Assembly (NCBI GenBank): GCA_958295925.1
Contig: OY282384.1
Coordinates: forward strand, 1,572-65,571
Reading direction: 5' to 3'
Source: an uncultured Acidimicrobiales bacterium
GTDB lineage: Bacteria > Actinomycetota > Acidimicrobiia > Acidimicrobiales > CATQHL01
Length of the DNA stretch: 64,000 bases
Part shown: positions 10,059 through 60,751 of the stretch, one piece after another
How positions within the stretch are numbered: position 1 is the stretch's first letter
How the letters are laid out: each line of letters starts with the position of its first letter
Program-made: the position numbers and the translations under genes
The notes under the pieces: generated by a model
What the model was told of the DNA's origin: nothing
Database searches by the model: none
What the model saw: only the letters and a program-made list of their open reading frames with translations

Positions 10059-10095
10059 TTAACCCCATGACCTAAAATCGAAGGAGGTGAGAACA

Positions 10096-10962: not shown

Positions 10963-11084
10963 ACTAAAGAAGGTGAGCCACCCGCCTACGGGACACCCCA
11001 AGGCGGGCGTAAACCGCAAGTCTGGTGGCAAGCCCAGACTGAAGAACCAACCCCTACCAGGGCAGAACGAGGAGAATAACCACA

Positions 11085-11249
11085 ATGAAGCAAGTAAAGC
11101 AAAACCTGCTGAACACCGCCATCGGCGCCGTCTTCGGAGTATTCCTGGGAATCGCAGTCATCGGGCTGACATACGACGACCAGGCGCCGACCAAGGCAGA
11201 CTACGAAAAGCTGGAGTCCAGAATAACCACCCTGGAACAGCAGAACTAG
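11085..11249 (+). CDS. small single-pass membrane protein (54 aa)
   Basis: GAGGAG SD, ATG 11085; MKQVKQNLLNTAIGAVFGVFLGIAVIGLTYDD..; TAG 11247-11249; below track cutoff. Confidence 0.5.
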   Translation: MKQVKQNLLNTAIGAVFGVFLGIAVIGLTYDDQAPTKADYEKLESRITTLEQQN

Positions 11250-11285
11250 CCGGCAGCCGATCAGAGGAGAAAAGAGAGGCCGACC

Positions 11286-12958: not shown

Positions 12959-13054
12959 CGCTGCCCCGCAGCCGGTTCCCATCCGAAACCCCGTGGAAGG
13001 AGAAGCGAACCCGGGAGCATAAAGGCAGCTACGCCTATTTAGGAGGTGAGAACC

Positions 13055-17223: not shown

Positions 17224-17652
17224 ATGACGGACTTCCTCACCCCGGAAGACCGCTCCCGGCTGATGTCCAAGATCAGAGGAAAGGACACCCGGCCAGAGAA
17301 AACCGTGCGCCAGCTCCTCTGGCACGCCGGATTCCGCTACCGGCTGAACGACAGGAAGCTGCCGGGAACCCCAGACCTGGCGCTAGCCCGATACCGCACC
17401 GCCGTCTTCGTCAACGGATGCTTCTGGCACCGCCACGACTGCCGGAAAGGCACGAAGCTCCCCAAGACAAACCGGCAGTACTGGCTGAAGAAATTCGCCG
17501 ACAACGCCGCGCGAGACGCCGCCAATCTCCGGATACTATCCCAGTACGGATGGACGACCACGGTGATCTGGGAATGCAGAATGGAAGAGGGGACGCAGCA
17601 CCTGCTGTTGGAGCTGTCCGAAAAGAGACGAAGGGAGAAGGACCGAACATGA
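17224..17652 (+). CDS. vsr: very short patch repair endonuclease
   Basis: RSRLMSKIRGKDTRPE..LPGTPDLALARYRTAVFVNGCFWHRHDC..TNRQYWLKKF..GWTTTVIWEC matches E. coli Vsr along its length. Confidence 0.93.
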   Translation: MTDFLTPEDRSRLMSKIRGKDTRPEKTVRQLLWHAGFRYRLNDRKLPGTPDLALARYRTAVFVNGCFWHRHDCRKGTKLPKTNRQYWLKKFADNAARDAANLRILSQYGWTTTVIWECRMEEGTQHLLLELSEKRRREKDRT

Positions 17653-28494: not shown

Positions 28495-30456
28495 CTGGTC
28501 AGAGAGCTGAAGGCCAGAGGCCGTCCGGCAGCCCCCGCCTACTGCCACTCCAGCGTGAACCACACCATCGACCAGGACAATCTGGGCTTCAATTTTTTGG
28601 ACCTGGACAACGGGAGCCGGGACGACCCCGACGGCCTGGGCGCGGAATGCTTCCGCCAGGTCATCAATACCTTCCTGGAACGGTGGCCCGACGCCCCCAT
28701 AGCAGAAAGCCTCTCCGGCAACGGACGCTGCCACATCCTCCACAATGCCGACCCGAAGGACCGAGCCGCCTGGAGCAACGACAAGAAGCAAACCTACATC
28801 GCCCACGGCGCGCCGGAGTGGAAGGTGGAATTCTGGGACCCCTACGGGCAGGGACGATACCGAATCTTCACCGACCGCTGGCTGAACGGCGACGCCGACC
28901 AGGCGCCCCTGCCTACGATCACGCACACCGAATTGAGAGAGTTCTTCCAGACCATCCTCGCCCAGCTCTGGCGCCCCGAGCCGCCAAAGCGGCCGGTAGG
29001 AAGGCCGCCGGCGGCCGACCCCGACATCCCCTACCCCGATGGAACCCACCTGGCTCAGACCGAGCAGGGTGCAGCGCTGCGGGTGGCCCAGCGCCAGCTG
29101 GAACAGGAACGACCCATGGTCATGCTGGACGACGGAACCTGCTACATCGCCCGAGACAGCGGACTGCTGGTCCAAATCCGAACCGACCAGCCCCTGGGCG
29201 CCGGCTCCCGGCTCTTCGCCAGCGAAATCAGGAAAGCCAATCACGCGGCAACTCAGGAATTCACCGAAGACCGCAGCGAAGCCGAACTCCCGACCTATCG
29301 GCATTACCAGGACCAATTCATCACCTGGGCCGACTCCCGCCCAGCCAACTTTCCGGATAAAGTGCTGCGCCACCTCACGATACTAGCCGAGGACGAAGCG
29401 GAGCACCCTCAGCTGATCTGGCACCAACAGAACAGAGCCCCGCTCACTCAAGCCAACCTGAACCCGCAGCCGCCGAAGGATTCACTGTACCCGCTGGCCG
29501 ACGGCCGGATCTACTCCACCGCCCGCAGCGACGTACTCAGCCCGGAGGAGGTCTACCACGACCTCCACACCGACGACGTGGCGCGGCTCACCCGTACCTG
29601 GGTGCCCGGCGCCTTCCAGCCGGACGCGGGCAAGTGCCAGCCCCAGGGGCAAACCTACGCCGCTTGGCTGCTCCAAGCATGGGCCGACAGCTTCAAGCTC
29701 CTGGTCTTCGCCTCCACCCGCCCCCGCAAGGAATGCGGCTTCAGCATCATGATCGGACACCCCGACCGCGGAAAAACCACGATGCTGGACATCTGGCAGA
29801 CGCTGGGGCTCTGCAACAAAACCAACCAACCGCTCCGGGACCAGAGCCGCAGCGGCATCCGACCCTTCGACTACCTGGCCGCCGCCCTCTGCAAGGAGCG
29901 ACTGGTGTTTCTGGACGAACTGGCCACTCCCCTGGAGGAGAATCCCAAGCCGATCCCCAGCGGGCCGCTGAAGGCCCTCACCGGACAGACCACGCTGACG
30001 TACGAGACCAAGTTCAAAGACGAAGTAACCCGCACCCGGCGGGGCAACCTGCTGGGCGTGGGAAACCACCCGCTGCTTTTAGACGCCGCGAACCCGGCCA
30101 TCCGTGAGAGGCTGCTCTTCATCCCGGAACCGAAGGAAGTGGAAGCCCTGAAGCCCCACCACGGCCTGCCGCCGGGACTCCGCAACACCGCCGAGTGCCT
30201 GGACGCGATACTGGACGCCTACCTCCAAGAAGCCAGCCGGCAGAGCAAGAGCAAGAACGACAGCCCGCCCTTCACCGCAGCCAGCTCACGAGAGTCCCGT
30301 AAAATCCGCGCCCAGCACGAAGCCCACTACGCCGCCTGGCAGGAGCAACAGCGCAGGAAACAGGGCCGCAACGGAAAGGCGCCCACCCCAGAGAAAGCAC
30401 CCGGAAAAGAGACCAGAACCAAAACAACCGGTACCAGGAAGCAGGCCAGCCGGTAA
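28495..30456 (+). CDS. replicative primase-helicase (AEP prim-pol N-terminus + SF3/P4-D5-type helicase)
   Basis: FNFLDLDNG (DxD) and SLSGNGRCHILH (SxH); Walker A GHPDRGKTT, Walker B LVFLDE. Start uncertain: AGGAGG 28481-28486 + 8 nt + CTG 28495; track start GTG 28555 has no SD. Confidence 0.8.
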   Translation: MVRELKARGRPAAPAYCHSSVNHTIDQDNLGFNFLDLDNGSRDDPDGLGAECFRQVINTFLERWPDAPIAESLSGNGRCHILHNADPKDRAAWSNDKKQTYIAHGAPEWKVEFWDPYGQGRYRIFTDRWLNGDADQAPLPTITHTELREFFQTILAQLWRPEPPKRPVGRPPAADPDIPYPDGTHLAQTEQGAALRVAQRQLEQERPMVMLDDGTCYIARDSGLLVQIRTDQPLGAGSRLFASEIRKANHAATQEFTEDRSEAELPTYRHYQDQFITWADSRPANFPDKVLRHLTILAEDEAEHPQLIWHQQNRAPLTQANLNPQPPKDSLYPLADGRIYSTARSDVLSPEEVYHDLHTDDVARLTRTWVPGAFQPDAGKCQPQGQTYAAWLLQAWADSFKLLVFASTRPRKECGFSIMIGHPDRGKTTMLDIWQTLGLCNKTNQPLRDQSRSGIRPFDYLAAALCKERLVFLDELATPLEENPKPIPSGPLKALTGQTTLTYETKFKDEVTRTRRGNLLGVGNHPLLLDAANPAIRERLLFIPEPKEVEALKPHHGLPPGLRNTAECLDAILDAYLQEASRQSKSKNDSPPFTAASSRESRKIRAQHEAHYAAWQEQQRRKQGRNGKAPTPEKAPGKETRTKTTGTRKQASR

Positions 30457-39133: not shown

Positions 39134-42100
39134 ATGCAGAACGACCCCGCCCAGACCACCGACGCCACTCAAGACGCCATCCAGCAAGCCCTCCAGTCCC
39201 TGGAAGAAAACAACCCCAACCCAACCCAAGGCCGCTGGCTGGAAGCCATAACCATCAGCGCCGCGCCCCTGATTAAAGAATACGACCTAGCCGCCTGCCA
39301 TTCCTGGGCCGACTGGCCCGAGCGGGAAGACCACTTCCCGGAGACTTCCCAGCAGGACATCGGCATCGACGCCGTAGCCCAACGCCGGTCCGATGGCGCC
39401 TACGTCGCCATCCAGTGCAAAGCCCGGCAACTCAACGAAGCCGGCCAGGGCCAGGACATCCAGAAAGGCGAATTGGACAAGTTCGTCGCCGCCTCCAGCA
39501 ACCCCCTCTGGGCCGAACGCTGGCTGGTCACCAACGGCGACAACCAGATCAGCGGCAACGCCGGGCAAGTGGCAACCATGTCCGACCCCGGCCGCCCGGT
39601 CAAGCTGGTCAACCTCCACGCCGACCTGGTGGCTCAGGCCCAGAGCCAAAGCTACCAGGAAGAACCCTGCCCCCACTGCCGGGCCCAGGAGGACGCCTTC
39701 CTGCCGGATAACTACATTGACAGTAACGACGGCGCGAGCCGGCCCATCCAGACCAAGTCCTGCATGCAGCACGAGGCCGTCGCCGCCAGCGTCCGAATAC
39801 TCAAAGAGCACGAACAATCCGATACCGGCGGCCTCCCCGTCGGCCAGGCCCGCGGCCGACTGATATTACCCTGCGGCACCGGGAAGACCCGCATATCACT
39901 GCGAATAGTGGAAGAACTGACCGACCCCGGGCAGCTTTCGATAGTACTCTGTCCTTCAATCGCATTGGTCGCCCAGCTGCGGCAGGAATACCTCAACCAG
40001 GCCCACCGGCCCCTCCGCGCCCTGGCCGTCTGCTCCGACCAGACCGCCGGCTACGACCCCCGGGGCGAGGATAAGCGCAACACCGCCGAAGACCCCACCC
40101 TGGACAACAGCAACGTCAGCGCCAAGGAACTCAAAGGCAAAGTAACCACCGACTCCCAGGAGATCGCCGACTGGATACGGCAAGGACAAGCAGAGAACCA
40201 GGAAAGCGACGACAAAGCCATCAGCGTCATCTTCGGCACCTACCAATCCGGCGCCGCCGTCGCCGAAGCCCTGAAGCTGGCCGAAGCCGAGGTCCAGGTC
40301 CTCATCGCCGACGAGGCCCACCGCACCGCCGGGCTGAAAAAGAAGCAGGGCGCCTCCGCCAAGGCCTACGAGGCCGAGCAGCGCATCCGCGACTTCACCC
40401 TGTGCCACGACCAACAGGCCTTCCCGGCAAAATATCGCATCTACCAGACCGCCACCCCGCGGATCTACACGCAGCAAGCCCGCCGGGCCGTCCCCGACAG
40501 CGACTGGGTGGTCCGCTCGATGAACGACGAATCCATCTTCGGCGTGGTCCTCTACGAAAAACAGTACGTCGAAGCCGTCAGGAACGAATGGCTCAGCGAC
40601 TACAAGATAATCGCCCTGGGAGTGAACGACCACCAGGCCCTGGAACAAGCCAATCTGATGGCCCTCCAGGACACCGGAAAAGGGACCAACCAGCTGACCG
40701 TCACCAAGTACCTGAAGGGGCTGGCCTTCGCCCTGGCCATGGCCGGCGCCACTCAGTGGCCGCCCAACCCGGAAGACAAGCAGGACGACCAAGACGGCCA
40801 GAACAACCAACAGACCCAACAACAGCGCAACCAAACTGAAAAGCTCCACCTGCCGATCCAATCCTGCATCGCCTTCATGAACACGGTGGAGAAGTCCAAG
40901 AAGATGCAGCGAGAGCTGAGCACGGACACCATCCGCAGCTGGCTCCGCATCTGGATGGCAGAGAACAAGATGCCGGAAGGGCCGGCGCACTATCAACTGG
41001 AGCACCTGGACGCGAGCAGCAACATCGTCAAACGCGACAACGCCAAACGCAAACTGGCCCAAGCCACCAAAGAAGCACCCCACGCCATCATCAACGTCGG
41101 CATCTTCGGCGAAGGGACCGACTCACCCTCCCTGAACGCCATCGCCTTCCTGGAACCCCGGCGCAGCCCCATCGACGTGATTCAAGCCGTGGGAAGAGCC
41201 ATGCGGACTTCTCCAGGAAAGGAAACCGGCTACATCATCTGCCCCATCGTGATTCCGCCCAACGCCGACCCCGAACAATGGCTGAAGCACAGCGGACCCG
41301 ACGACGGCTGGAAGGAGCTGGGCGATATTCTCCTAGCGCTCAGGGCTCATGACTCCAGGATCGAAGACAACCTGGCCGACCTGCTGACCCTCTACGTCCC
41401 CAAGCCGCCGCCGGTAGTGACTAATCTAGTAGCCATCGCGATCGGAGAGGACAAGCGTTTCAGCTACCGGGAGCATACCGGAGAACCCGGCCAAGCCGTG
41501 GAAGACCTGGAACTCGTGCTGACCGACCAGATGCCGATCAATAGAAAGTTCCGGCCGGTAACCGAAAGGACCGGGAACGAAGCCGCCCGGCTCAGCGTCA
41601 CCGCCGCCAGGACCGGCCCGCTTTCCGAGGAAGACGGCCCCATGTTCCAAGGGCTGAACGGCAGCCCCGAAGGCGCCGGCCAGCCCGGCACGGCCCCCGC
41701 CGCCGAAGCAGCGGCAACGATTGAAACAACCCAAGCTATTACAGCCCATCTCCCGGAACCCACCGAGATCCTAGCCGGTAAGAAGCACAGCGACGGCTCC
41801 CTGGAAATCCGCCAGGATTGCGTGGTACGGCAGAAGCCCCAGAACGACGGCACTCCAGGGCCAATCGACCTGGACAAGTCCAAGAAGCGCGCCCAGGACA
41901 TGCTCAACAAAGGCGAAGGCCTCCGCCTGGCCACCGGCGAGAACCGGCCGCCCCGCCGCCAGCGCCGCAGCATCCACGAGGAATCAGCCTACCAGCTATT
42001 GATGCGGACCAACCTGGACGAACACGGCCAGGCCATCCAGATGAACCTCCTGGCCAAGTCGGGACTGGTCCAGAACCGGCCCCAGCGGGACGCCAACCTG

Positions 42101-44467
42101 ATCGAAGCCTCCATCAAGGAGGCCGCCCACCAACTCACCCAGGACGGACTCAAGGCGGAATTGGAACGACACCTAGGCCTGGACCTACTCAAGCCCGACG
42201 ACAAGAAGCAGCAGGCCGACGGCTGCACCATCGCCGCCCTATTACTGATGAACGCCGCCATGCTGCACCAGCGCATCGCCCAAGGGCAGTGGCTGCCCAA
42301 CGTCAGCGACCTGAAGGAAATCAAACAGGACGTCCACGTAATTAGAAGAATCAAAAGGGAATGGGACCGCATCGGCCGCGTCGACTTCCTGCCTATAATA
42401 GAACCGGCCCTCAGCGTCATCGAAACCATCGAGGACACGGAACGGGTCGCCGGCCTGGAACGGGCCCTGCGGCACCTGGCAGCCGAGGCCGAACGCCTGG
42501 CCGCCACCTACGCCGACCTGGGCGCCGACCACGCCGGAGCGCTATTCAACAAGGTACGCGGCCACCAGGCCTCCGACGGCGCCTACTTCACCCGGCCCAC
42601 GGCAGCGTCGCTATTGGCCCGACTGACCCTGGACTGCCACGAACCCCAGGACTGGACCAGCGAAGAGACCTGGCGGGAAATGAAGACGATTGATTTAGCC
42701 TGCGGCAGCGGGACGATCCTGGCCGCCGTCCTGGCCGACCTGAAACGCCGGGCTCGGCTGCAGGGAGCTAGCGAAGAGCACCTCGCCCAGCTGCAGAAAA
42801 TAGCCGTCGAAGACGTCCTCAAGGGCCTGGACATTGACCCCATCTCCCTGCAGCTGGCCGCCGCCCAGCTCACCGGCGGAACCCAGGACATCCGCTATAG
42901 AAGAATGGGCCTGTTCCAGATGCCCTACGGCCCCAACCCCGAATACCCGGACCGCGTCTCCGCCGGAACCCTGGAACTGATCAGCCAGCAGTCCCTGGTC
43001 CCCCAGCCCGGGCAGCTTGGATTCCAAGACGAAGCGATCCAGACCCGGAACGCCTGGGAGAAGCAGCAGGAGACCGCGCTGGAAGGCGCGGTGGAAGCCG
43101 CACGAAGTCCCCGGAACATCGTAATGAACCCACCCTTCAGCAACCGCACCAAGGTCGGAGAGAAATTTCCCAAGGAGATTCAGAACAAGCTGCGGCAACG
43201 GATCGACCAGATGGAGAACCTGCTGGTGAAAAGCGACCCGGGCCTGACGGAGTTCGTCGACAAGAACTCCGTCATGCCCTTGTTTGCGGCCCTAGCGGGC
43301 CAACTGCAACAAGGGCATGAGAACAACGTCCTGAGTATGATCTGCCCAACTATCTCGCTCTCCAACACATCAGGATTAAACGAGCGAAAACTACTCGCCC
43401 AGCGATACCACATCCGCACGATCCTGACTTCCCACCAACCACGCAACGTCAATATGAGCCAAGGCACGGGCATCCACGAAAGTATTGTCATCATGGACAA
43501 TCAAGCCCCAGGCTCCAGGGTGCCAACCCGTTTCGTCCACCTAGACCGGATGCCAGTGGCTGAAACCGAGGTTGCGGACTTACACCAAAATCTGCAGGAT
43601 TGCCAACAAGGCCAAATTCCAAACGGATGGGGAGAGATCTCCCAGTGGCCCGCCAATCAAATGGAACAAGGCGACTGGACGCCAGCCGTCTGGCGGTCGC
43701 CCGAATTGGCGGAAGCGGCCCGGCAATTCGCCGCCCACCCGGAAATGCGAACCATTCAGGAACACGGATATTCTTGTGAAGCCACCCGCGATATGATGAG
43801 GAAGTCCAACTTTATCCCGGCCACTCCCGGAAATAAAAGTAGCTTTCCCATCATCGACTCAAAAGGCGCCGACGGACAGAGAACCATCCGAAGCACGCCG
43901 GACGCGCAATGGCAGCCGACGAACCCGGACGAAGAGCAACGCATGCGCAAACGACTACTATCAAAAGCCGGTTTCCTGATGATAACATCAGGACAGAATA
44001 CGTCCACCGCCCGGCTGACCACCATTGCCAGTGACGAAGCCTACGTCGGACGTGGGTGGCTGCCCATCACCGGGCCTAACGCCGAGGAAGCTAAAGCCGT
44101 AGCAGTATTCCTCAACTCTACCCCAGGCCGTCTCCAAATACTGAGCAGCGCCGGTCGCACAATAGCCTTCCCCCAATACAATCCAGAGCCCCTGGAGAGC
44201 ATCCAAATCCCCAATATCAAAGAAAAAGCAACCCTGAAGACCCTAACCGACTGCTGGGAGGCAACGAAAAACATGGTAGTCCCCCAGTTCCGCGACGGAG
44301 AATGCAGAGTGCGACAACTCTGGGACGAAGCAGTCGCCGAAGCTCTAGGCTGGGACCCTGAAGAATTAACCCGGCTCCGCCTACTCTTGCACCAAGAGCC
44401 CCACGTGCGAGGACTAGGCTACAACCAGTACCAAGAAGCAGAAACGATTCACGAGGAAGGAAATTAG
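39134..44467 (+). CDS. Type ISP-like single-polypeptide restriction-modification enzyme (nuclease + SF2 helicase + N6-adenine methyltransferase + C-terminal specificity region)
   Basis: 1777 aa. N-terminal PD-(D/E)xK-like DIGIDAV..YVAIQCK; helicase motifs I PCGTGKT, II IADEAHR, III QTATP, VI QAVGRAMR; methylase motifs I DLACGSGTIL and IV NIVMNPPFS. Confidence 0.85.
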   Translation: MQNDPAQTTDATQDAIQQALQSLEENNPNPTQGRWLEAITISAAPLIKEYDLAACHSWADWPEREDHFPETSQQDIGIDAVAQRRSDGAYVAIQCKARQLNEAGQGQDIQKGELDKFVAASSNPLWAERWLVTNGDNQISGNAGQVATMSDPGRPVKLVNLHADLVAQAQSQSYQEEPCPHCRAQEDAFLPDNYIDSNDGASRPIQTKSCMQHEAVAASVRILKEHEQSDTGGLPVGQARGRLILPCGTGKTRISLRIVEELTDPGQLSIVLCPSIALVAQLRQEYLNQAHRPLRALAVCSDQTAGYDPRGEDKRNTAEDPTLDNSNVSAKELKGKVTTDSQEIADWIRQGQAENQESDDKAISVIFGTYQSGAAVAEALKLAEAEVQVLIADEAHRTAGLKKKQGASAKAYEAEQRIRDFTLCHDQQAFPAKYRIYQTATPRIYTQQARRAVPDSDWVVRSMNDESIFGVVLYEKQYVEAVRNEWLSDYKIIALGVNDHQALEQANLMALQDTGKGTNQLTVTKYLKGLAFALAMAGATQWPPNPEDKQDDQDGQNNQQTQQQRNQTEKLHLPIQSCIAFMNTVEKSKKMQRELSTDTIRSWLRIWMAENKMPEGPAHYQLEHLDASSNIVKRDNAKRKLAQATKEAPHAIINVGIFGEGTDSPSLNAIAFLEPRRSPIDVIQAVGRAMRTSPGKETGYIICPIVIPPNADPEQWLKHSGPDDGWKELGDILLALRAHDSRIEDNLADLLTLYVPKPPPVVTNLVAIAIGEDKRFSYREHTGEPGQAVEDLELVLTDQMPINRKFRPVTERTGNEAARLSVTAARTGPLSEEDGPMFQGLNGSPEGAGQPGTAPAAEAAATIETTQAITAHLPEPTEILAGKKHSDGSLEIRQDCVVRQKPQNDGTPGPIDLDKSKKRAQDMLNKGEGLRLATGENRPPRRQRRSIHEESAYQLLMRTNLDEHGQAIQMNLLAKSGLVQNRPQRDANLIEASIKEAAHQLTQDGLKAELERHLGLDLLKPDDKKQQADGCTIAALLLMNAAMLHQRIAQGQWLPNVSDLKEIKQDVHVIRRIKREWDRIGRVDFLPIIEPALSVIETIEDTERVAGLERALRHLAAEAERLAATYADLGADHAGALFNKVRGHQASDGAYFTRPTAASLLARLTLDCHEPQDWTSEETWREMKTIDLACGSGTILAAVLADLKRRARLQGASEEHLAQLQKIAVEDVLKGLDIDPISLQLAAAQLTGGTQDIRYRRMGLFQMPYGPNPEYPDRVSAGTLELISQQSLVPQPGQLGFQDEAIQTRNAWEKQQETALEGAVEAARSPRNIVMNPPFSNRTKVGEKFPKEIQNKLRQRIDQMENLLVKSDPGLTEFVDKNSVMPLFAALAGQLQQGHENNVLSMICPTISLSNTSGLNERKLLAQRYHIRTILTSHQPRNVNMSQGTGIHESIVIMDNQAPGSRVPTRFVHLDRMPVAETEVADLHQNLQDCQQGQIPNGWGEISQWPANQMEQGDWTPAVWRSPELAEAARQFAAHPEMRTIQEHGYSCEATRDMMRKSNFIPATPGNKSSFPIIDSKGADGQRTIRSTPDAQWQPTNPDEEQRMRKRLLSKAGFLMITSGQNTSTARLTTIASDEAYVGRGWLPITGPNAEEAKAVAVFLNSTPGRLQILSSAGRTIAFPQYNPEPLESIQIPNIKEKATLKTLTDCWEATKNMVVPQFRDGECRVRQLWDEAVAEALGWDPEELTRLRLLLHQEPHVRGLGYNQYQEAETIHEEGN

Positions 44468-51438: not shown

Positions 51439-53829
51439 ATGCCATTCTTCATCCCCATCCTCGTTGGTATCGGAATAGCCGCCGCGTTAAGCGGCTCAGG
51501 CGCCGCAACTATCCACGCCAACGATCGTAAGAAGAAAGCCAGGAAACGCCTGAAGCGGAGCGAAACGGAATACACCAACCAAGGCCAGAAGACCCAAGAC
51601 TTCCAAGAACAAGTAAACAAAGCGATCGAGAGCTTGGGCCAAGACCGCATCGACGCCATGCGGACGATCAAGGAGGCAATCACTTTCCTGCAACAGGCCA
51701 GACTGAAGAATCCCAACCTGATCGTTGACGACCTGCTCAAAGACCTCCAGGAGCTGGAGAAGCTAGGCCAGATCTACGACCCCATACTAAGCAAGATAAC
51801 AACCAACGCCGCCGGGACCGCCGGCGGCCTGGCCGTGGGCGCCTTAGCTTCACTAGGAGCCTACGGCCTAGCCAGCACCATCGGCATCGCCTCTACCGGC
51901 GCAGCCATCTCCGGACTCAGTGGAGCCGCCGCCAGCTCAGCAGCCCTAGCCTGGCTAGGCGGAGGGGCACTAGCCGCCGGTGGCGGAGGCGCAGCCCTAG
52001 GCGCCAACCTGATACTGCCAGGAATCGCGATCATCCCCACCATTGCCGCGTGGGGCATACTGGCGGAGTTCCAGGCCGGGAACTTCGAGAAGAAAGTGGA
52101 CGACGAAGTCTCCCGCATCAGAAAGGAAATCAGCGAGCTCAAACTGCTCCATACCAAGTTCGACGGCATCCACCAACGCACCCAGGAAATCAGCCGAGCC
52201 GTAAGAGAACTGAACCAGCTACTCCAGGAACAGCTGAAGACCGAACGGCAGAAAGAAGCCGCCGGCCAGGCGACCAAAGAAGAAAAGTACGCCGGACTAC
52301 AGCGGATCGCCCTGCTGGCCAAAGCACTGCGCGACACCCTGGACATCCCGGTAATCAACAAGAACGGCGAGGCCGCCACCGGACCAGTCCGTTCCCCACA
52401 CCATCCCAACGGCTCACAGGCATCGCTACCCAGCGCCCACCCAACAAGAGTGGAGAGCTATCAAACCACCAAGACCATCACCCGCTCCGGCACCGGCGCC
52501 GCCGTCCCCCAGGTCTTCACCCTGAACAGCGGACTAGCCATCATCGAGTGCGAGCACCGCGGCGAGGGAACCTTCCAGGCCACCCTCGAACCAGCCAACA
52601 AAGAAGCCGGAGACCCGGCCGTAACATTGGCCGACACGGAAGGAAGCATCAAACGACAGCAACTCGTCATGATCCAACCCCACCCGGCCGAAACCGCCGG
52701 AAAGCCATTTCCCAAGACCTACTACCTGAGAGTCAAAGCCAGCGGCAAATGGACCGTAACCATCACCCAGCCCAGGGCCGGAGGCAGCAAAGCCCCCACC
52801 GACTGGAACGGAACAACCACCCCACCCCACCAGCCCTATTTCTCAGCGCCCTTCACCATCGGCTCCCAGCCAATCGCGCTGCATCACGAACAGAAGAACC
52901 CCTCACCATTGAGCGTCACCGCCTACCCCGTGGACGGCAGAGGCGAACCGATCGACATCATCCGCTCGGTGAATCAGAACGGCCCCGCCAGCAACCTGCT
53001 CCTCCAGCCCAACACCGAATACATGCTGGAAGTGGAAGCCGCCAGCGATTGGTCCCTCACCGTCGTCCCGCCGCCACAATCAAAAACGCTTCAGGCCCCC
53101 GACCAAAAAGCCCTGCGCAAGGCCCTGAACGCCGGCCGAAGCGTCGAACGCCGCGGCACCGACAGCCGGAAAACGACCACCACCTTCCACCTGATCCCCG
53201 GCCTAGCCCTGGTCACCACCAAGCACGAAGGCGCCGGACAATTCAAGGTAGTGCTACGCCCCAACACCGCCCCCAACGGCCATTCAACAGGCGCCACCCC
53301 GCAACCAACCCCGGTACCCCACATCGTCCTGATCGACAAGGTAGGCGCAGCCGACACCAACGACCTTTACGTCATCATGAACGAAGCGCCACCGGCACCG
53401 CCAAGCAAGGATACAACTGAAGAGACCAGCCCCACCGTGAGAACCCAGTCCATCCAGACCGGCCCCTGGCCCTGGAAGGACTACACCCTGGAAGTAACCG
53501 CCGACGGCCCCTGGAAAATCAAACTCAGCCAACCCGCCGCCGGCCTGGCCAAGCCCTGCCCCGGCTGGCAAGGCGAAGGCATGCTGCCCGGACGCAGCGT
53601 CATCACCGAGCCGGTCACCTTCCCCAGCGCCAGCCGCCAACTCTTCCTAGAGCACTCCGGCCCCGGAGCTTTCATCGTCGACGCCTACCCGGTGGACGGC
53701 AGCAGCCCGCCGGTCAACCTGGTCCGAACCAAAGGAAAATACGCCAAACGCCCCGAGACCGAACTGAAAGAGAACTTAGAATACCTACTGGAAATCCAAG
53801 CCGAAAGCGACTGGAAACTCAAAGCCTAA
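51439..53829 (+). CDS. G-family N-terminal module fused to a duplicated beta-rich C-terminal region
   Basis: MPFFIPILVGIGIAAAL; STGAAISGLSGAAASSAALAWLGGGALAAGGGGAALG; two C-terminal repeats of about 224 aa (VFTLNSGLAIIECEHRGEGTFQATL / TFHLIPGLALVTTKHEGAGQFKVVL). Confidence 0.7.
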   Translation: MPFFIPILVGIGIAAALSGSGAATIHANDRKKKARKRLKRSETEYTNQGQKTQDFQEQVNKAIESLGQDRIDAMRTIKEAITFLQQARLKNPNLIVDDLLKDLQELEKLGQIYDPILSKITTNAAGTAGGLAVGALASLGAYGLASTIGIASTGAAISGLSGAAASSAALAWLGGGALAAGGGGAALGANLILPGIAIIPTIAAWGILAEFQAGNFEKKVDDEVSRIRKEISELKLLHTKFDGIHQRTQEISRAVRELNQLLQEQLKTERQKEAAGQATKEEKYAGLQRIALLAKALRDTLDIPVINKNGEAATGPVRSPHHPNGSQASLPSAHPTRVESYQTTKTITRSGTGAAVPQVFTLNSGLAIIECEHRGEGTFQATLEPANKEAGDPAVTLADTEGSIKRQQLVMIQPHPAETAGKPFPKTYYLRVKASGKWTVTITQPRAGGSKAPTDWNGTTTPPHQPYFSAPFTIGSQPIALHHEQKNPSPLSVTAYPVDGRGEPIDIIRSVNQNGPASNLLLQPNTEYMLEVEAASDWSLTVVPPPQSKTLQAPDQKALRKALNAGRSVERRGTDSRKTTTTFHLIPGLALVTTKHEGAGQFKVVLRPNTAPNGHSTGATPQPTPVPHIVLIDKVGAADTNDLYVIMNEAPPAPPSKDTTEETSPTVRTQSIQTGPWPWKDYTLEVTADGPWKIKLSQPAAGLAKPCPGWQGEGMLPGRSVITEPVTFPSASRQLFLEHSGPGAFIVDAYPVDGSSPPVNLVRTKGKYAKRPETELKENLEYLLEIQAESDWKLKA

Positions 53830-53864
53830 AGCCAACAGCCCCACGCACTAGAAGGAAGCATCAC

Positions 53865-54257
53865 ATGCCTTTTCACACATTTACCGAGGGCCACGTAGGA
53901 CACCCCACCAGCGAATACAAAGAAGCCCACTGGGTCAAAGCAAAGAACATCCGCATCAACCTGGACCACGTCACCCACGTCTACGAAGCCGACTACGGCA
54001 GCATCGCCACCCACCAACAGAGAACCGAACACTACTTCCACCTGGTAACCGGAGAGACCATCAGAATAGACGAAGAGTACCTGCCGCCCTGCGACAATTG
54101 CCTGGAACCAATCCTACCCCAGGGCATCCAGAACGACCACGGCCTGCGCAAGTGCATCCCCGCCCCCAGCGTCATCGCCCTGCGGGAACGCGCCAAAGCC
54201 GAACACGAACAGCAGATGCAGGAAATCAGCCAAGCCAACTATCCTCAGGCCATCTGA
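53865..54257 (+). CDS. hypothetical protein
   Basis: GAAGGAAG SD; track ORF 130 aa. Confidence 0.55.
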   Translation: MPFHTFTEGHVGHPTSEYKEAHWVKAKNIRINLDHVTHVYEADYGSIATHQQRTEHYFHLVTGETIRIDEEYLPPCDNCLEPILPQGIQNDHGLRKCIPAPSVIALRERAKAEHEQQMQEISQANYPQAI

Positions 54258-54305
54258 ACCCGGTTAGACTGAAAGCACCCCCACCAGCATAAGGAGCCGC
54301 CCGCA

Positions 54306-55196
54306 ATGCCCCTACCCATAATCATCCCAATCGCCATCGGCGCCGTCACCCTGGTCGGCGGCCTCACCGCCACCAAGCACGGCTCTGACCGAATCAAACG
54401 CGCCCAAGCCCATCATCAACAGGAATACGACGCCTACGCCAACCAGCACCAGCACACCGTCGCCGCCCAGCAGGAAATCGACGAGCATTACCTGCCACTA
54501 TTGGGACAGATGCGACTGGACGCGATGGCCGCCGTCCGCGAAGCCATCAAGCTGGCCAACCAAGCCGTTCAACACCACGCCCACGCCCTGCCCGACTCGC
54601 TCCACGACGAATTAGTGGAACTCAAGAACAGCCACGGAGTCTACGACTCACTACTGGACCAGACCACCCTCCCGGGCAGCACCCTGGCTACCCAGGACAT
54701 GGCCCAACTAGGCGCCTCAGGGCCGTCTTCCGCCATCAACGCCATCAGCGCCGCCGGCACCGGAGCCGCCATCTCGGGCTTGGGCAGCCTCTACGCCGCC
54801 AAGGCCGGAATAGCCTGGCTGGGCGGCGGTACTTTAGTCGCCAGCGGAGCCGGCATCGCCGGGGGCGCAGTGCTGCTGGGCGGGTTGGCCGCCGGGCCAC
54901 TCCTGGCCATGGGAGTGCTCAAAGAGATAAAGGCCGGCCGCGTCGAAAAAGAAGTGGAAATCGAAGTGGACCAGCTGCACCGGCAGATGAACCGGCTGAC
55001 CGCGCAGCGGGAACGCATGGACAAGAGACTATTCCGCATCGGCGAACTCCAGGGCACTCTGGACCGGAAGAGCCGGGCCCTGGCCCGCTACACCCAGAAG
55101 CTAGACCTCACCCAAGCGGAGGCGCCCGAGGCGCTACACCAACTAGCTATCGGCATCCGAGAGCTGCAGCAGCTGATCAATGAACCAGTGCACTAA
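54306..55196 (+). CDS. G-family member 4
   Basis: MPLPIIIPIAIGAVTLVGGLTATKHG; GTGAAISGLGSLYAAKAGIAWLGGGTLVASGAGIAGG. Confidence 0.7.
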   Translation: MPLPIIIPIAIGAVTLVGGLTATKHGSDRIKRAQAHHQQEYDAYANQHQHTVAAQQEIDEHYLPLLGQMRLDAMAAVREAIKLANQAVQHHAHALPDSLHDELVELKNSHGVYDSLLDQTTLPGSTLATQDMAQLGASGPSSAINAISAAGTGAAISGLGSLYAAKAGIAWLGGGTLVASGAGIAGGAVLLGGLAAGPLLAMGVLKEIKAGRVEKEVEIEVDQLHRQMNRLTAQRERMDKRLFRIGELQGTLDRKSRALARYTQKLDLTQAEAPEALHQLAIGIRELQQLINEPVH

Positions 55197-55229
55197 GACA
55201 GGACAATACCCAAAGATTGGAGGGCAAAT

Positions 55230-56165
55230 ATGCCGCTACCGCTACTGATACCCATAGCCCTGGGGGCCGCCAGCATCATCACCGGCCTCACAGCCACAAA
55301 ACACGGTGAACATCGCATCAAGAAAGCGCAAGAGCACCTCCAAGCTGAGTATGACCTCTACAAAGCCCAGCACGAAGAGACAGCAGTATCAGTCAACCGA
55401 TTCAACGACGAAGCACTTCCACTCTTTGGACAATCAAGGCTCCATGCCATTGAGAACCTAAGGATGGCCTTCGAGTACACCAACCAACAGTGGGAGGAGA
55501 ACCCAGAGCTCCTCGGCGAGGAAGGGAGAGCCAAACTGGAAGACCTAGCCGCAAAGCAGGAAGCATACAACACTATCGTCGATGAGTATGCCAACGCGAA
55601 GACCGGACTAGGCACCGGGGCACTCGCGACCCTAGGCGCAGCAGGGATCGCCGGCGCGTTTGGCACTGCCGGGACCGGCGCGGCCATCAGCAGCCTAAGT
55701 GGCATCTACGCCGTAAAAGCAGGACTAGCCTGGCTAGGGGGCGGCACCCTAGCCGCCGGAGGGGCCGGAATGGCCGGCGGAGCCAGCCTACTCGGTGGAC
55801 TAGGCGGCATCCCGATACTCGCCATCGGCATCCTCAAGGAGGGAAAAGCCGACAAAGTTGAGAAAGAGGTCGAAAAAGAGGTAGCCAAGCTACAAGAGAA
55901 GAAGCACAAACTTCTGCAGGAAAAGAACAGAATAGACCAACTCAGCCTCGACTCCGCTGAACTCCATTACCGCATGAACCTAGAAGGCAAAGCAGTACTA
56001 AAGGCAATAATGCGCACAGAACGTAGCGAGAAGTGGTTAGCTTGGCTCTACCAAATCTACCAGCTCATCTGGAGACGACCATTCCCAGGGAAAGTGAAGA
56101 ACATCAATCGCATCATCACCCGCGCAGCAACACTACAAGCAACCCTGCAGCAGAAGCTGATCTAG
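55230..56165 (+). CDS. G-family member 5
   Basis: MPLPLLIPIALGAASIITGLTATKHG; GTGAAISSLSGIYAVKAGLAWLGGGTLAAGGAGMAGG. Confidence 0.7.
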   Translation: MPLPLLIPIALGAASIITGLTATKHGEHRIKKAQEHLQAEYDLYKAQHEETAVSVNRFNDEALPLFGQSRLHAIENLRMAFEYTNQQWEENPELLGEEGRAKLEDLAAKQEAYNTIVDEYANAKTGLGTGALATLGAAGIAGAFGTAGTGAAISSLSGIYAVKAGLAWLGGGTLAAGGAGMAGGASLLGGLGGIPILAIGILKEGKADKVEKEVEKEVAKLQEKKHKLLQEKNRIDQLSLDSAELHYRMNLEGKAVLKAIMRTERSEKWLAWLYQIYQLIWRRPFPGKVKNINRIITRAATLQATLQQKLI

Positions 56166-58255: not shown

Positions 58256-60496
58256 CTACAGACCAAGCAAGGAAAGCCCGAGACGCTGCCGCGCAACATC
58301 AATCGAACAAATCCTCACCTTCATAACCTGCCCAGCAGCAAAAGCATCTGCCGCCCGCCAATCCTCCCCCGGTGGGATCTCGGTCTTATGCACCAAGCCT
58401 TTCAAACCCAGCTCAAAGCGGACGAAGATACCAAAATCAGCCAGGCCGTCATAAACCCCTACTATCACGTCCCCCACGGAATGACGCTCAGCCAGGAAGT
58501 CCCAAGGGTCCCGGAGACACGGAAGAGTCAACCGCACGTTCCCCTTCTCCGGGTCCCTACCATCCACGGAAGTCACCCGAACAACGACAGGATCGCCCAC
58601 TGAAAGCTCACCCAATTCCTGGGCAGCGAGCATAGAGAGACACTCCGAAGGAACAAGACCATCCACAACCCCCAACGAGACAAAAGCCCCATGCTCAGTA
58701 ATCGAAGACACTCTACTGCTGAACTCCTGGCCCACCTGGAAAGACTGCCGCCGCCCCCGCCGTACAGCCTCAACCCCACCGGCAGTGTCCAACTCCACCC
58801 ACGGACCCCACCCATGCCCGTTCACCGCCCGGACGCGGTAACGAGCACCAGCAACAAGGCTCCGCCCCACCATCGTAGAGAAGGCGCCAGAGCGACCACC
58901 CACTGAAACATCCCGATCCGACTGCCATTCCCCAGCATGATGCTGTACCTCAAAATGCGTCACGGGAGAATAACCGGACCACACCGGCATCTCCCAGGAG
59001 AAGCCATAAGCGTCTCCCCGCTGATAAACCAAGGACAAAGAGCGCACCGCGCCAGGAAAAGCACCTTTCACCTGCACCGACGAACCGTGCCAAGGCGTGG
59101 AATAACCCCGCCACCTTGCCCGAACACGATATTCGTAAAGAAACGTCTCCAGAGGAGGCACCAGCGGTTGATCCACAAAATCGACACCCTCGGTCTCAGG
59201 GAAGACCTCGTCCTCGCTGAACCCAGAAAGAGAAGAGACATACCGGACAACTTCAAAAACGACGCCGTCAGGACGGCAGGACAAGCTCCAAGAAAGGTCG
59301 ACCATCCCACTCCCCGGGCGGACCGCAGCCCGCAGCGGAGACAAACCCAGAACAGAAGAAACCGCCTGCACCAACTCCTCCTCAGTGAGAGAAATCAGGG
59401 CCCAAGGCCCAGGGATACCAACATCGCTAATACCCCGCACCCGAACCGAAAGACCCGACAAGTCGGTTACCTCGTAAGAATAAGGAACATCCGAACAGAC
59501 ACACTCGAACCGGACCGACCCATCGGAGAATTTTTCCACCGGACAAGAACAGGGAACCCCCGGAACGGTTTCGACGGCAGCCCAGGAACCAGAGAAAGAA
59601 TCCCAAGACTCCAACTCATACGCGCGAGTAGGAAGGATCTGCCGCGGCCCCAAGTCGCCAGAGAGTCCCCACTTCAAACCGAAAAGGAAATTTTGATTCT
59701 CCGGATCAAAGGACAGCCCAGCCGACTTCAACGCCAGCAGCGGAACCGCAGAGACACTGGTCACCTCAGCAAAGCGCGCAGCGCCAAAAACCGCCCGCTC
59801 CTGCTTATAAGCCTTCAAAGCCCATTCACACCGCCACGCCGTCTGACGACTATCTAAAGGCGGCGAAAGCCAACGAATCCGATGCTCACCCCGATTGCGA
59901 GTATCAGAATTACGAACCTTCTTCCAATGTTCGTCATAAATGAGAACAAACTCAGAGGAACGATACTCAACGACCCTAGAGCTATAGGCCCCTGGATTCC
60001 GAATATCATTACGCCCCGCCATATACAAGGCATTCTTAGCAACAACCTCATGTTGAAACTGACGAAGCGAGGGATTGTAAGTCATACCAACGTAACCAGT
60101 CTCCAGCTGGTAGACAAAGAATCCTTCACGAAGCAATGGCTTACCCTTGCACCCAGGGACAATCCCATCAACCGGCTCAACAGAACAAACATTGCTAGTG
60201 CAACTGGACGGCTTGCCCCCACAGGAGAGATCAAGCGTCACCAACCACCCAGCACAGAACGGACACATTGGAGAATCAACTTCCAGATAATGCTTTTCCT
60301 TGTGATCGGGATCGACACAAGCACGAGCGCAAGCGCCACAGACAAACTCGGACTGCGACTTAGCAGAACCGCACATGGCACAATCCAGGAGCAACAAAGG
60401 GTCCAGCAACCCCAAAACACGGTTCATCTCAGGAAGATGAGAACTCTCCCCAGCCAGGAACCGCCGCGACCAGACGTCACGATACTCAGTAGTCAT
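58256..60496 (-). CDS. multidomain protein: zinc ribbon + GIY-YIG nuclease + FN3-like repeats + two S1 RNA-binding domains
   Basis: 746 aa. CAMCGS..CGACARAC; FFVYQLETGYVGMTYNPSLRQFQHE (GIY-YIG); YEYRVRARW and ARYRVRAVNGHGWGPW (FN3-like); GQEFSSRVSSITEHGAFVSL and VGDVIVGVYDGLADFGIFVRF..GLVHKTEI..GQVMKVRICSIDVARQRLGLSL (S1). Overlapping + ORFs are Arg-rich junk. Confidence 0.75.
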   Translation of the reverse strand: MTTEYRDVWSRRFLAGESSHLPEMNRVLGLLDPLLLLDCAMCGSAKSQSEFVCGACARACVDPDHKEKHYLEVDSPMCPFCAGWLVTLDLSCGGKPSSCTSNVCSVEPVDGIVPGCKGKPLLREGFFVYQLETGYVGMTYNPSLRQFQHEVVAKNALYMAGRNDIRNPGAYSSRVVEYRSSEFVLIYDEHWKKVRNSDTRNRGEHRIRWLSPPLDSRQTAWRCEWALKAYKQERAVFGAARFAEVTSVSAVPLLALKSAGLSFDPENQNFLFGLKWGLSGDLGPRQILPTRAYELESWDSFSGSWAAVETVPGVPCSCPVEKFSDGSVRFECVCSDVPYSYEVTDLSGLSVRVRGISDVGIPGPWALISLTEEELVQAVSSVLGLSPLRAAVRPGSGMVDLSWSLSCRPDGVVFEVVRYVSSLSGFSEDEVFPETEGVDFVDQPLVPPLETFLYEYRVRARWRGYSTPWHGSSVQVKGAFPGAVRSLSLVYQRGDAYGFSWEMPVWSGYSPVTHFEVQHHAGEWQSDRDVSVGGRSGAFSTMVGRSLVAGARYRVRAVNGHGWGPWVELDTAGGVEAVRRGRRQSFQVGQEFSSRVSSITEHGAFVSLGVVDGLVPSECLSMLAAQELGELSVGDPVVVRVTSVDGRDPEKGNVRLTLPCLRDPWDFLAERHSVGDVIVGVYDGLADFGIFVRFELGLKGLVHKTEIPPGEDWRAADAFAAGQVMKVRICSIDVARQRLGLSLLGL

Positions 60497-60637
60497 AAAA
60501 CAACACCACCCCCGCCAAGAGATTACTTTCCCGATTATAGAAAAGAGAGAAAGCCTACTCTCTAAACGAAAACGCCCCCAGTCCTAAACCACTGCCCCGC
60601 AGCTGCAATCCGGCTTCCGCCGTCTGGTTTGGTTCCT

Positions 60638-60659
60638 CTTCCCCGGTTGCGGGCGGTGG
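60638..60659 (+). repeat. intergenic TTTCCCGGTT element, variant copy
   Basis: cttccccggttgcgggcggtgg upstream of 60752 gene. Confidence 0.45.
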
Positions 60660-60751
60660 CCTTGCGCCTCGTGCTTCCCTTTTCCGTTCCTGGGGAAAAG
60701 ACAGCGCCCAGCGCAAAAGCCGCCAGCTTCAACACACCCGAGGTGAGAACT

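What the first reader, a model, noticed from the sequence alone, without database searches (positions are those of the whole stretch)
58256..60496. Minus-strand 746-aa protein combining zinc ribbon, GIY-YIG nuclease, FN3-like repeats and two S1 domains
Seen: a GIY-YIG signature (FVYQLETGYVGMTYNPSLRQFQHE), at least two FN3-like signatures (YRVRAVNGHGWGPW) and two convincing C-terminal S1 folds (GLVHKTEI..VKVRICSIDVARQRLGLSL). It is one of only four convincing minus-strand loci. Inference: pairing a DNA/RNA nuclease with S1 RNA-binding domains through FN3 spacers is an unusual architecture. It could be an RNA-guided or RNA-sensing nuclease, or an anti-phage/anti-host factor. It lies convergent to a methylase-HNH gene.
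Basis: partly seen in the sequence, partly recalled or inferred. Interest (0 to 1): 0.7.

Follow-up and report, generated by a model that had tools for sequence, protein, structure and literature searches.

The report
Rare GIY-YIG nuclease with RNA-binding tail
The minus-strand ORF is a real gene for a rare multi-domain enzyme: a zinc-binding module, a divergent DNA-cutting (GIY-YIG) domain, three fibronectin-like spacers and two RNA-binding S1 domains. It belongs to a small family seen so far only in Dehalococcoidia bacteria and probably cuts nucleic acid at sites marked by RNA or by transcription.

Summary
ORF 58256..60496(-) encodes a conserved 746-aa protein with 18 word-indexed homologs. 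Only 35 clusters match its nuclease domain among 1.84 billion representatives. A homolog pair gives dN/dS 0.15.

Domains:
- An 8-ligand Cys/His zinc module.
- A divergent GIY-YIG domain. The window protein itself has no Pfam hit. Family members reach PF01541. A family profile's top four PDB hits are UPF0213/SLX1. hhalign against YhbQ scores 29 versus 10±2 for shuffles. Invariant Tyr/Gly/Arg/His/Glu.
- Three FN3 domains (Foldseek E about 1e-12).
- Two S1 domains colinear with part of ribosomal protein S1.

- Nothing indicates RNA guidance.
- There is no PADLOC hit and no relatives in viral contigs.
- The MTase-HNH neighbour is not conserved. Homologs sit as solo genes beside housekeeping and metabolic genes on Dehalococcoidia chromosomes.

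New lead: relatives lacking the terminal S1 pair end in a PcrA/UvrD-type Tudor domain, which binds RNA polymerase. The C-terminal module therefore alternates between RNA binding and RNA-polymerase binding. Best guess is a transcription- or nascent-RNA-targeted endonuclease; the substrate is unknown.

It is a new architectural variant of a known nuclease superfamily, of moderate interest. Separately, the window shows an extreme, orientation-independent strand bias.

The parts
58256..60496 (-). Complete CDS, 746 aa plus stop (stop codon 58256-58258; ATG at 60494-60496)
   Evidence: ORF list. Homologs support this start over the public 706-aa call. Purifying selection in the family.
60146..60391 (-). 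N-terminal Cys-rich zinc module (aa 36-117). It follows the conserved 'LLDP' helix. Ligands are C39-x2-C42-x10-C53-x2-C56-x3-C60-x4-H65...C78-x2-C81, plus an optional second cluster C92/C99/C104/C116.
   Evidence: Ligands invariant or nearly invariant across 13-20 family members. Only weak DZR_2 hits in relatives and a weak PHD-finger hit (E 0.93).
59747..60136 (-). Divergent GIY-YIG nuclease domain (aa 121-250) with a roughly 45-residue helical insertion. Putative catalytic residues are Y129, Y135/G137, R145, H149 and E224.
   Evidence: (beta-beta-alpha-[alpha alpha]-beta-alpha-alpha topology).
59384..59740 (-). FN3-like domain 1 (aa 253-371). It carries the strongly conserved 'LGPSQIVPV' and 'RVRAVND.GIPGPW' motifs.
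   Evidence: AF2 model; Foldseek hits to tandem FN3 arrays; invariant I361-P-G-P-W365.
59063..59344 (-). FN3-like domain 2 (aa 385-478)
58784..59053 (-). FN3 domain 3 (aa 482-571)
   Evidence: Pfam fn3 484-566, 23.3 bits.
58526..58741 (-). S1 domain 1 (aa 586-657)
   Evidence: PF00575; rpsA models.
58259..58483 (-). S1 domain 2 (aa 672-746)
   Evidence: PF00575 and S1_RRP5; rpsA, CvfD and GSP13 models.
60497..60750 (.). Upstream intergenic region, shared with a divergently oriented + strand gene. It presumably holds the promoter. No recognisable element was found.
   Evidence: Sequence read. Promoter and terminator scan at background level. No meaningful repeats.

Best explanation
The gene encodes a cytoplasmic, zinc-containing, multi-domain endonuclease. 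Its catalytic centre is a divergent GIY-YIG domain, closest to the SLX1/UPF0213(YhbQ) branch, with the full Tyr/Gly/Arg/His/Glu set preserved. Three FN3 domains form a scaffold or spacer. The first one is as conserved as the nuclease and probably packs against it or contributes to substrate handling. Two C-terminal S1 OB-folds, colinear with two consecutive S1 repeats in the middle of ribosomal protein S1, tether the enzyme to single-stranded RNA.

In relatives the C-terminal module is instead, or additionally, a PcrA/UvrD-type Tudor domain, whose known job is to bind RNA polymerase. The most likely logic of the family is therefore recruitment of a nuclease to transcription complexes or nascent RNA, for example R-loops or stalled or conflicting transcription. 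There it cuts nucleic acid, with DNA favoured by GIY-YIG precedent and RNA not excluded.

It acts alone: it is monocistronic with no conserved partner. It is not RNA-guided and is not functionally tied to the neighbouring MTase-HNH gene.

Shown: gene reality, domain identities and order, conservation of catalytic and zinc-ligand residues, restricted distribution, variable context, and the S1/Tudor alternation. Inferred: nuclease activity, RNA binding, transcription-coupled targeting, and substrate.
For: - Real, constrained gene.
- GIY-YIG. The A3 profile retrieves short minimal members. One of them, P0044, passes the Pfam GIY-YIG gathering score (26.6 bits against 22.6). Eleven of 24 core domains hit PF01541 and no other family recurs. 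The A4 profile's top four PDB hits are all GIY-YIG: 1ywl E 0.0024, SLX1 7wme 0.039, 1zg2 0.048, SLX1 7cq2 1, with the N- and C-terminal halves aligned in order. hhalign of A4 against E. coli YhbQ scores 29.1, against 10.4±2.1 and a maximum of 19 for 200 shuffles. Invariant residues are Y129, G137, R145, H149 and E224. The predicted topology fits.
- S1 pair.
- FN3 x3.
- Tudor in relatives. The A6 profile gives PcrA/UvrD C-terminal domains as 8 of its top 9 PDB hits. hhalign against the E. coli UvrD C-terminus gives probability 87% and score 30.2, against shuffles of 8.3±1.6. The RNAP-binding role of that domain comes from PMC5397179 and PMC8318588.
- S1 occurs in both close and the most divergent members, P0031 and P0032.
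- Homologs are solo genes in chromosomal housekeeping contexts: folP/folK and gyrB, tsaD, peptidase M20/M28 and RNase D-like.
Against: - The window protein has no direct significant match to any GIY-YIG model or structure. The assignment is transitive.
- hhalign probability is only 45-54%.
- No GIY-YIG enzyme that I know of or could find cleaves RNA, while S1 domains are typical of RNA-binding proteins. The substrate is therefore ambiguous.
- The Tudor inference comes from relatives, not from this protein, and covers only about 30 aligned residues. Pfam did not report it.
- In this window the gene lies beside a defence-like gene cluster on what looks like a mobile element, unlike its relatives.
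- There are no expression or biochemical data.
Confidence: 0.45

Rival explanations
1. A lineage-specific endoribonuclease for RNA processing or decay. The S1 pair captures single-stranded RNA, as in RNase E/G, PNPase or RNase II/R, and the GIY-YIG centre cleaves the RNA itself.
For: S1 domains are the best-supported part and resemble mRNA-binding rpsA domains. Some homologs lie next to tsaD or an RNase D-like gene. Homologs occupy chromosomal, housekeeping-type contexts.
Against: I found no precedent for RNA cleavage by a GIY-YIG domain (own knowledge). The RNA-related neighbours are not consistent between loci. The Tudor alternative in relatives points to RNA polymerase or DNA repair rather than to mRNA decay.
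Confidence: 0.2
2. A defence effector, or a mobile-element weapon against host or competitors. The nuclease senses foreign RNA through S1 and degrades nucleic acid (abortive-infection-like).
For: In the window it follows a cluster of defence-type genes: a 1777-aa Mrr+helicase+MTase protein, three PDC-M09A paralogs and an MTase-HNH gene. One homolog is near an Mrr gene and another is beside a transposase. The gene has lower GC than its flanks in four homolog loci.
Against: No PADLOC model matches. There are no relatives in IMG/VR or JGI metagenome contigs. There is no conserved partner or immunity gene. Several homologs share a syntenic position among metabolic and housekeeping genes. There are no flanking repeats.
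Confidence: 0.15
3. A free-standing homing-type or otherwise selfish GIY-YIG endonuclease.
For: GIY-YIG is a classic homing-endonuclease fold. The gene is a solo gene with atypical GC and sits next to a DDE transposase in L005.
Against: There is no intron or intein context and no flanking repeats. Two homologs share the same gene neighbourhood. Purifying selection acts over the whole 750 aa. The closest GIY-YIG branch is SLX1/UPF0213, not the I-TevI type.
Confidence: 0.05
4. A secreted or surface 'eukaryote-like' FN3 protein, or a polymorphic toxin that delivers a nuclease.
For: FN3 arrays are typical of extracellular proteins. GIY-YIG toxin domains are mentioned in work on polymorphic toxins (PMC7073777, listed).
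Against: By inspection of the sequence I see no N-terminal signal-peptide-like hydrophobic stretch. The nuclease is N-terminal rather than a C-terminal toxin tip. There is no adjacent immunity gene. The S1, Tudor and intracellular-type zinc modules argue for a cytoplasmic role.
Confidence: 0.05

Closest known systems
UPF0213 / YhbQ-type small GIY-YIG proteins (E. coli YhbQ, annotated in RefSeq as 'DNA damage response nuclease'; PDB 1ywl, 1zg2)
   Same: The nuclease core gives its best sequence-profile matches here. The 'YxGxTxNPxxRxxxH' motif and the later 'A.R.E..lK' helix align in order.
   Different: Those proteins are roughly 100-aa single-domain proteins. This domain has a roughly 45-residue helical insertion, a much shorter GIY-to-YIG spacing, and is embedded in a 746-aa protein with zinc, FN3 and S1 modules. 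It has no direct significant hit.
SLX1 structure-specific endonuclease (GIY-YIG plus RING/PHD-type zinc finger; PDB 7wme, 7cq2)
   Same: The same GIY-YIG branch by profile. The nuclease is paired with an 8-ligand Cys/His zinc module whose spacing is compatible with a cross-brace finger (weak PHD hit).
   Different: The zinc module is N-terminal here and C-terminal in SLX1. There is no SLX4-type partner. The extra FN3 and S1 domains are absent from SLX1. The host is a bacterium.
UvrC / Cho GIY-YIG incision nucleases of nucleotide excision repair
   Same: A GIY-YIG catalytic fold in a multi-domain bacterial protein. Family relatives carry the UvrD/PcrA Tudor domain that, according to PMC8318588, binds an interaction motif on RNA polymerase.
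   Different: There is no sequence-level match to UvrC in the PDB profile search. It lacks a UvrB-binding domain, an RNase H-like second nuclease and (HhH)2.
Ribosomal protein S1 (rpsA), two consecutive S1 repeats in mid-protein
   Same: Residues 583-743 align as one colinear stretch with two consecutive S1 repeats of rpsA models (positions 188-347 of 391; E 2e-26).
   Different: Scores are far below the rpsA equivalog cut-offs (93 against 368 bits). Only two repeats are present and they are attached to a nuclease. By position in the model these are central repeats, so the N-terminal ribosome-docking repeats are probably absent (domain roles from my own knowledge).
S1-bearing ribonucleases (RNase E/G, RNase II/R, PNPase)
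   Same: The same design principle: a catalytic domain joined to an S1 single-stranded-RNA-binding domain.
   Different: The catalytic fold is unrelated (GIY-YIG here), and the S1 domains are tandem, C-terminal and separated from the nuclease by three FN3 domains.

Membership tests
GIY-YIG nuclease superfamily (Pfam clan; PF01541) | Significant match of the protein itself to a GIY-YIG profile | tested here: not met
   No PF01541 hit for the window protein, either whole or as the isolated domain, at E<=10. No NCBIfam GIY-YIG hit.
GIY-YIG nuclease superfamily (Pfam clan; PF01541) | Transitive or profile-level homology to bona fide GIY-YIG proteins | tested here: met
   Family member P0044 passes the PF01541 gathering score. 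Eleven of 24 members hit PF01541. The top four PDB hits of profile A4 are all GIY-YIG. hhalign against YhbQ scores 29.1, against a shuffle maximum of 19.0 in 200 trials.
GIY-YIG nuclease superfamily (Pfam clan; PF01541) | Catalytic residues: Tyr of 'GIY', Tyr/Gly of 'YIG', Arg, His/Tyr four residues later, and the metal-binding Glu | tested here: met
   Y129, G137, R145, H149 and E224 are invariant in 24 diverse members, and Y135 is nearly invariant. The conserved Asn of some branches was not identified.
GIY-YIG nuclease superfamily (Pfam clan; PF01541) | Three-stranded sheet with beta-beta-alpha...beta-alpha topology, confirmed by structural comparison | tested here: inconclusive
S1 RNA-binding domain (PF00575) | Profile match above the curated threshold | tested here: met
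   59.6 bits against a cut-off of 22, with two stretches at 586-645 and 687-743. Supported by the rpsA, CvfD and PNPase models.
Fibronectin type III (PF00041) | Profile match or fold match | tested here: met
   Pfam is just below cut-off for repeat 3 (23.3 against 25). Relatives P0013 and P0010 score 26.3 and 22.7 bits. Foldseek of the full model against tandem FN3 structures gives E 4e-12 over 320-480 columns.
SLX1 family | GIY-YIG followed by a C-terminal RING/PHD finger, acting with SLX4 | tested here: not met
   The zinc module precedes the nuclease. The PHD similarity is insignificant (E 0.93). A partner is not testable here.
Known anti-phage defence systems (PADLOC-DB) | Match to a defence protein model and/or a conserved defence operon | tested here: not met
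   No PADLOC hit. No conserved neighbour across L001-L010.
RNA-guided nucleases | Associated guide-RNA locus, repeat array or structured ncRNA | tested here: not met
   No Rfam family in the window. No repeats around the gene. No conserved flanking non-coding region could be defined.
PcrA/UvrD C-terminal Tudor domain (in relatives only) | Profile-level homology of the C-terminal tail | tested here: met
   This holds for relatives P0013, P0014, P0021, P0024, P0029, P0033 and P0022, not for the window protein. Pfam was silent.

The most novel reading that the evidence does not exclude
The family may be a previously unrecognised class of transcription-coupled endonuclease. A GIY-YIG cutter would be delivered to nascent RNA, R-loops or stalled RNA polymerase by interchangeable S1 (RNA-binding) or PcrA/UvrD-type Tudor (RNAP-binding) modules. 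In the more radical version it would be the first GIY-YIG enzyme that cleaves RNA. The window copy, carried on a giant strand-biased element, could be a captured version used to manage transcription-replication conflicts or host transcripts.
Probability: 0.25. Interest if true: 0.7.

Novelty: new variant of a known kind. Interest (0 to 1): 0.45.

Why it matters
GIY-YIG nucleases are known from DNA repair (UvrC, SLX1), homing and restriction. A version wired to RNA-binding or RNA-polymerase-binding modules would link this fold to transcription-associated genome maintenance, or to RNA cleavage. It would also give a testable candidate for how an uncultured, ecologically important lineage (Dehalococcoidia) handles R-loops or stalled transcription. 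The family is very small and unannotated, so defining it adds a new architecture to nuclease classification. The practical impact is limited until activity is shown.

Tried and rejected
1. Direct domain assignment of the N-terminal 250 aa failed. Pfam, NCBIfam and PHROGs were tried, then profile searches against PDB with the close-homolog alignments A2 and A3, then Foldseek against PDB. Only the broadened family profile worked.
3. A phage origin is rejected. There is no DNA match in INPHARED. Protein hits there are only rpsA-like S1 segments. IMG/VR holds no relative.
4. The JGI metagenome scan found no relative.
5. Looking up the source contig through P0001 and through the MTase-HNH protein failed.
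6. A conserved operon partner or defence association is rejected.
7. A mobile cassette with terminal repeats is rejected.
8. Promoter and terminator scans were at background level.
9. A named fold for the zinc module remains unresolved.
10. Literature searches for this architecture and for RNA-cleaving GIY-YIG enzymes found nothing relevant.
11. The YhbQ homolog set retrieved for profile-profile comparison was too shallow (at least 75% identity) to improve on the single sequence.
Full report
**1. The gene is real**

The ORF lies exactly at 58256..60496 on the minus strand, with an ATG start and 746 codons. A word-indexed search of 5.8 billion proteins returned 18 relatives. One is an identical 706-aa public gene call, from a 643,545-bp contig. 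Full-length relatives share 39-45% identity.

The homologs conserve the first 40 residues ('YRDVWSRR...LLDP') and the first CxxC. The 746-aa start is therefore right and the public 706-aa call is truncated. Two homologs whose DNA I could fetch give dN/dS of about 0.15 over 755 codons, with every module under constraint, although dS is saturated.

The coding strand is unusually G+T-rich. At codon position 3, A is 5% and T is 38%. The protein is enriched in V, G, L, S and F and depleted in K, N and I compared with its relatives. This reflects a bias of the whole window (section 6), not a spurious ORF.

**2. Domain map**

- **S1.** Pfam gives S1 twice, at 586-645 and 687-743 (E 4e-16). NCBIfam aligns residues 583-743 as a single colinear stretch with two consecutive repeats of ribosomal protein S1 models (E 2e-26, far below the equivalog cut-offs). 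The tail is therefore an rpsA-like tandem S1 module, not rpsA itself.
- **FN3.** Pfam fn3 is just under threshold for 484-566. An AlphaFold2 model built on the 13-sequence alignment has mean pLDDT 73 and shows three beta-sandwich domains at about 253-371, 385-478 and 482-571. Foldseek puts them on three- to five-domain FN3 arrays at E of about 1e-11 to 1e-12. The first FN3 carries some of the most conserved motifs of the whole protein ('LGPSQIVPV', 'RVRAVND.GIPGPW').
- **Zinc module.** The N-terminus holds eight invariant or near-invariant ligands: C39-x2-C42-x10-C53-x2-C56-x3-C60-x4-(H/C)65-x12-20-C78-x2-C81. An optional four-Cys cluster follows. Only weak double-zinc-ribbon hits and one weak PHD hit (E 0.93) were found, so the finger type is open.

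**3. Is it a GIY-YIG nuclease?**

The window protein itself gives no GIY-YIG hit in Pfam or NCBIfam. Profiles of its close homologs find nothing significant in PDB sequences. Foldseek of the N-terminal model (residues 120-250 at pLDDT 80-90) finds nothing significant, with the UPF0213 structure 1zg2 only at rank 9.

The assignment comes from the family:
- A profile of residues 119-250 was searched without a word index against 1.84 billion cluster representatives. It found only 35 proteins. These include short members of 170-206 aa that keep the Cys module but lack the helical insertion.
- One of these, P0044, passes the Pfam GIY-YIG gathering score (26.6 bits).
- Of 24 diverse core domains, 11 hit PF01541 (best E 2e-6) and no other family recurs.
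- A profile of those 24 domains searched against 177,635 PDB sequences returns as its top four hits only GIY-YIG proteins of the UPF0213/SLX1 branch: 1ywl at E 0.0024, 7wme at 0.039, 1zg2 at 0.048 and 7cq2 at 1. Both halves of the domain align in the right order.
- hhalign against E. coli YhbQ (annotated 'DNA damage response nuclease') spans the whole domain, with the insertion as one gap. Probability is 54% and the score is 29.1. Two hundred shuffles of YhbQ give 10.4±2.1 with a maximum of 19.0.
- The columns invariant across the family are exactly the GIY-YIG catalytic set: Y129, G137, R145, H149 and E224.
- The predicted secondary-structure order is beta-beta-alpha-[two inserted helices]-beta-alpha-alpha.

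I regard the fold assignment as about 85-90% secure, and the active site as intact.

**4. Distribution and context**

All four hits among 185,579 GTDB species representatives are Dehalococcoidia MAG chromosomes of 2.4-4.5 Mb. No relative was found in IMG/VR or JGI metagenome contigs. No source names any member in the look-ups made.

Homologs are solo genes with no conserved partner:
- between folP/folK and a gamma-glutamyltranspeptidase, near gyrB;
- directly upstream of tsaD;
- in a position shared by two loci between an acetyltransferase and a peptidase M20/M28 gene, with an RNase D-like gene nearby;
- beside a DDE transposase;
- about 2.6 kb from an Mrr gene.

The gene has lower GC than its flanks in four loci.

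In the window the gene follows a defence-like cluster. This comprises a 1777-aa Mrr+ResIII+MTase protein, three PDC-M09A paralogs and the convergent N6/N4-MTase+HNH gene. The protein matches no PADLOC model. There are no flanking repeats, no Rfam hits and no above-background promoter or terminator signals. The MTase-HNH adjacency is therefore incidental, and 'RNA-guided' has no support.

**5. A lead on mechanism from relatives**

S1 pairs occur in close relatives and in the most divergent full-length members, P0031 and P0032. Several members instead end in a roughly 50-residue tail with a 'vGDrVrH..fGqGtV' motif.

A profile of seven such tails finds the C-terminal Tudor domains of PcrA/UvrD helicases as 8 of its top 9 PDB hits (5dma at E 0.0023; 7egs_B at 0.0082; 6yi2 at 0.0095; and others). 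hhalign against the last 75 residues of E. coli UvrD gives probability 87% and score 30.2. Shuffles give 8.3±1.6 with a maximum of 13.

That domain is the RNA-polymerase interaction module of PcrA/UvrD, and PcrA is linked to R-loop suppression (PMC5397179, PMC8318588). Within one family the module attached to the Zn-GIY-YIG-FN3 core thus alternates between an ssRNA binder and an RNAP binder. The simplest common denominator is recruitment to transcription complexes or nascent RNA. This step is inference. It is based on relatives, on a short alignment, and on a Pfam-negative region.

**6. Comparison with known families, and verdict**

The protein works most like a structure- or context-targeted GIY-YIG endonuclease such as SLX1, UvrC or Cho. 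Its targeting principle is borrowed from S1-bearing RNases or RNAP-binding helicases. It is not a member of the SLX1, UvrC, YhbQ or rpsA families as defined (see the membership table). It is best filed as a new architectural variant within the GIY-YIG superfamily.

Rivals remain open: a true RNase, a defence or mobile-element effector, a selfish endonuclease, and a secreted FN3 protein. Interest is moderate. The architecture is rare and suggests a specific, testable biology, but nothing yet shows activity or substrate.

**7. Noted in passing: strand bias of the window**

The whole window has an extreme strand bias that does not depend on gene orientation. T is about 5% at third codon positions of + strand genes, and A is 3-6% at third positions of the three longest minus-strand ORFs examined. 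The window carries at least five DNA methyltransferases and a DUF5906 primase-like gene. None of the 26 large ORFs scanned gave a recognisable housekeeping-family hit. This may be the more unusual feature of the region.

Noticed in passing
window 1-64000: Extreme strand-specific base composition that does not depend on gene orientation. The + strand has AT skew +0.35 and GC skew -0.12. At third codon positions T is 4-7% in + strand genes, and A is 3-6% in the three longest minus-strand ORFs examined, which again means about 5% T on the + strand. The pattern resembles the mitochondrial heavy/light strand asymmetry and suggests long single-stranded exposure of one strand, meaning asymmetric replication or transfer. 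Homolog loci on Dehalococcoidia chromosomes lack it.
   Followed up: partly
window 1-64000 (source contig 643,545 bp): The gene content looks like a giant mobile or extrachromosomal element or island. Nearly all long ORFs are on one strand. There are at least five DNA methyltransferases (6923-7714, 15589-16842 C5, 31058-31930, 56248-58131, and within 39134-44467), a DUF5906 primase-like protein (28555-30456) and an 808-aa double HATPase protein (17418-19844). None of the 26 ORFs scanned gave a recognisable housekeeping-family hit. There is no DNA match in INPHARED phages.
   Followed up: partly
window 51439-56165: Three consecutive paralogs matching the candidate defence family PDC-M09A (796, 296 and 311 aa; E 4e-31, 6e-14, 2e-25). 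They lie just upstream of the MTase-HNH gene.
   Followed up: no
window 39134-44467: A 1777-aa fusion protein with Mrr-type nuclease, ResIII/helicase and methyltransferase regions. It matches a PADLOC type IIG restriction-methyltransferase model at E 1e-90.
   Followed up: no
window 60377-60496: The public gene call for this protein (P0001, 706 aa) starts at Met41. It omits 40 conserved residues, including the first zinc ligand C39. Homologs support the upstream ATG at 60496.
   Followed up: yes
relatives P0013, P0014, P0021, P0024, P0029, P0033, P0022; L002 9821-11434: Family members without the terminal S1 pair end in a domain homologous to the RNA-polymerase-binding Tudor domain of PcrA/UvrD. 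P0007, P0008, P0013, P0014 and P0016 also contain an extra 'NKGGL..WCG.RGF.P.S' segment that looks S1-like but was not tested.
   Followed up: partly
window 13581-13675 (-): ARAGORN calls a 95-nt tRNA-Arg(TCT) on the minus strand inside a long + strand ORF (13046-14764). Rfam reports no tRNA there at gathering score, so it may be a false positive or an intron-containing or degenerate tRNA.
   Followed up: no
window 59495-59560 (aa 313-334 of the protein): The first FN3 domain of the window protein has an insertion with CxC...CxC (C316, C318, C332, C334) that is absent from relatives. It could be an extra metal site, or simply a product of the G+T-rich codon bias that favours Cys, Val and Gly codons.
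   Followed up: no
L001-L004 around position 10001-12000: In all four Dehalococcoidia loci the homologous gene has a GC content 5-12 points lower than its flanks, with G>C and T>A on its coding strand. This hints at a foreign origin or an unusual compositional constraint for the family.
   Followed up: no
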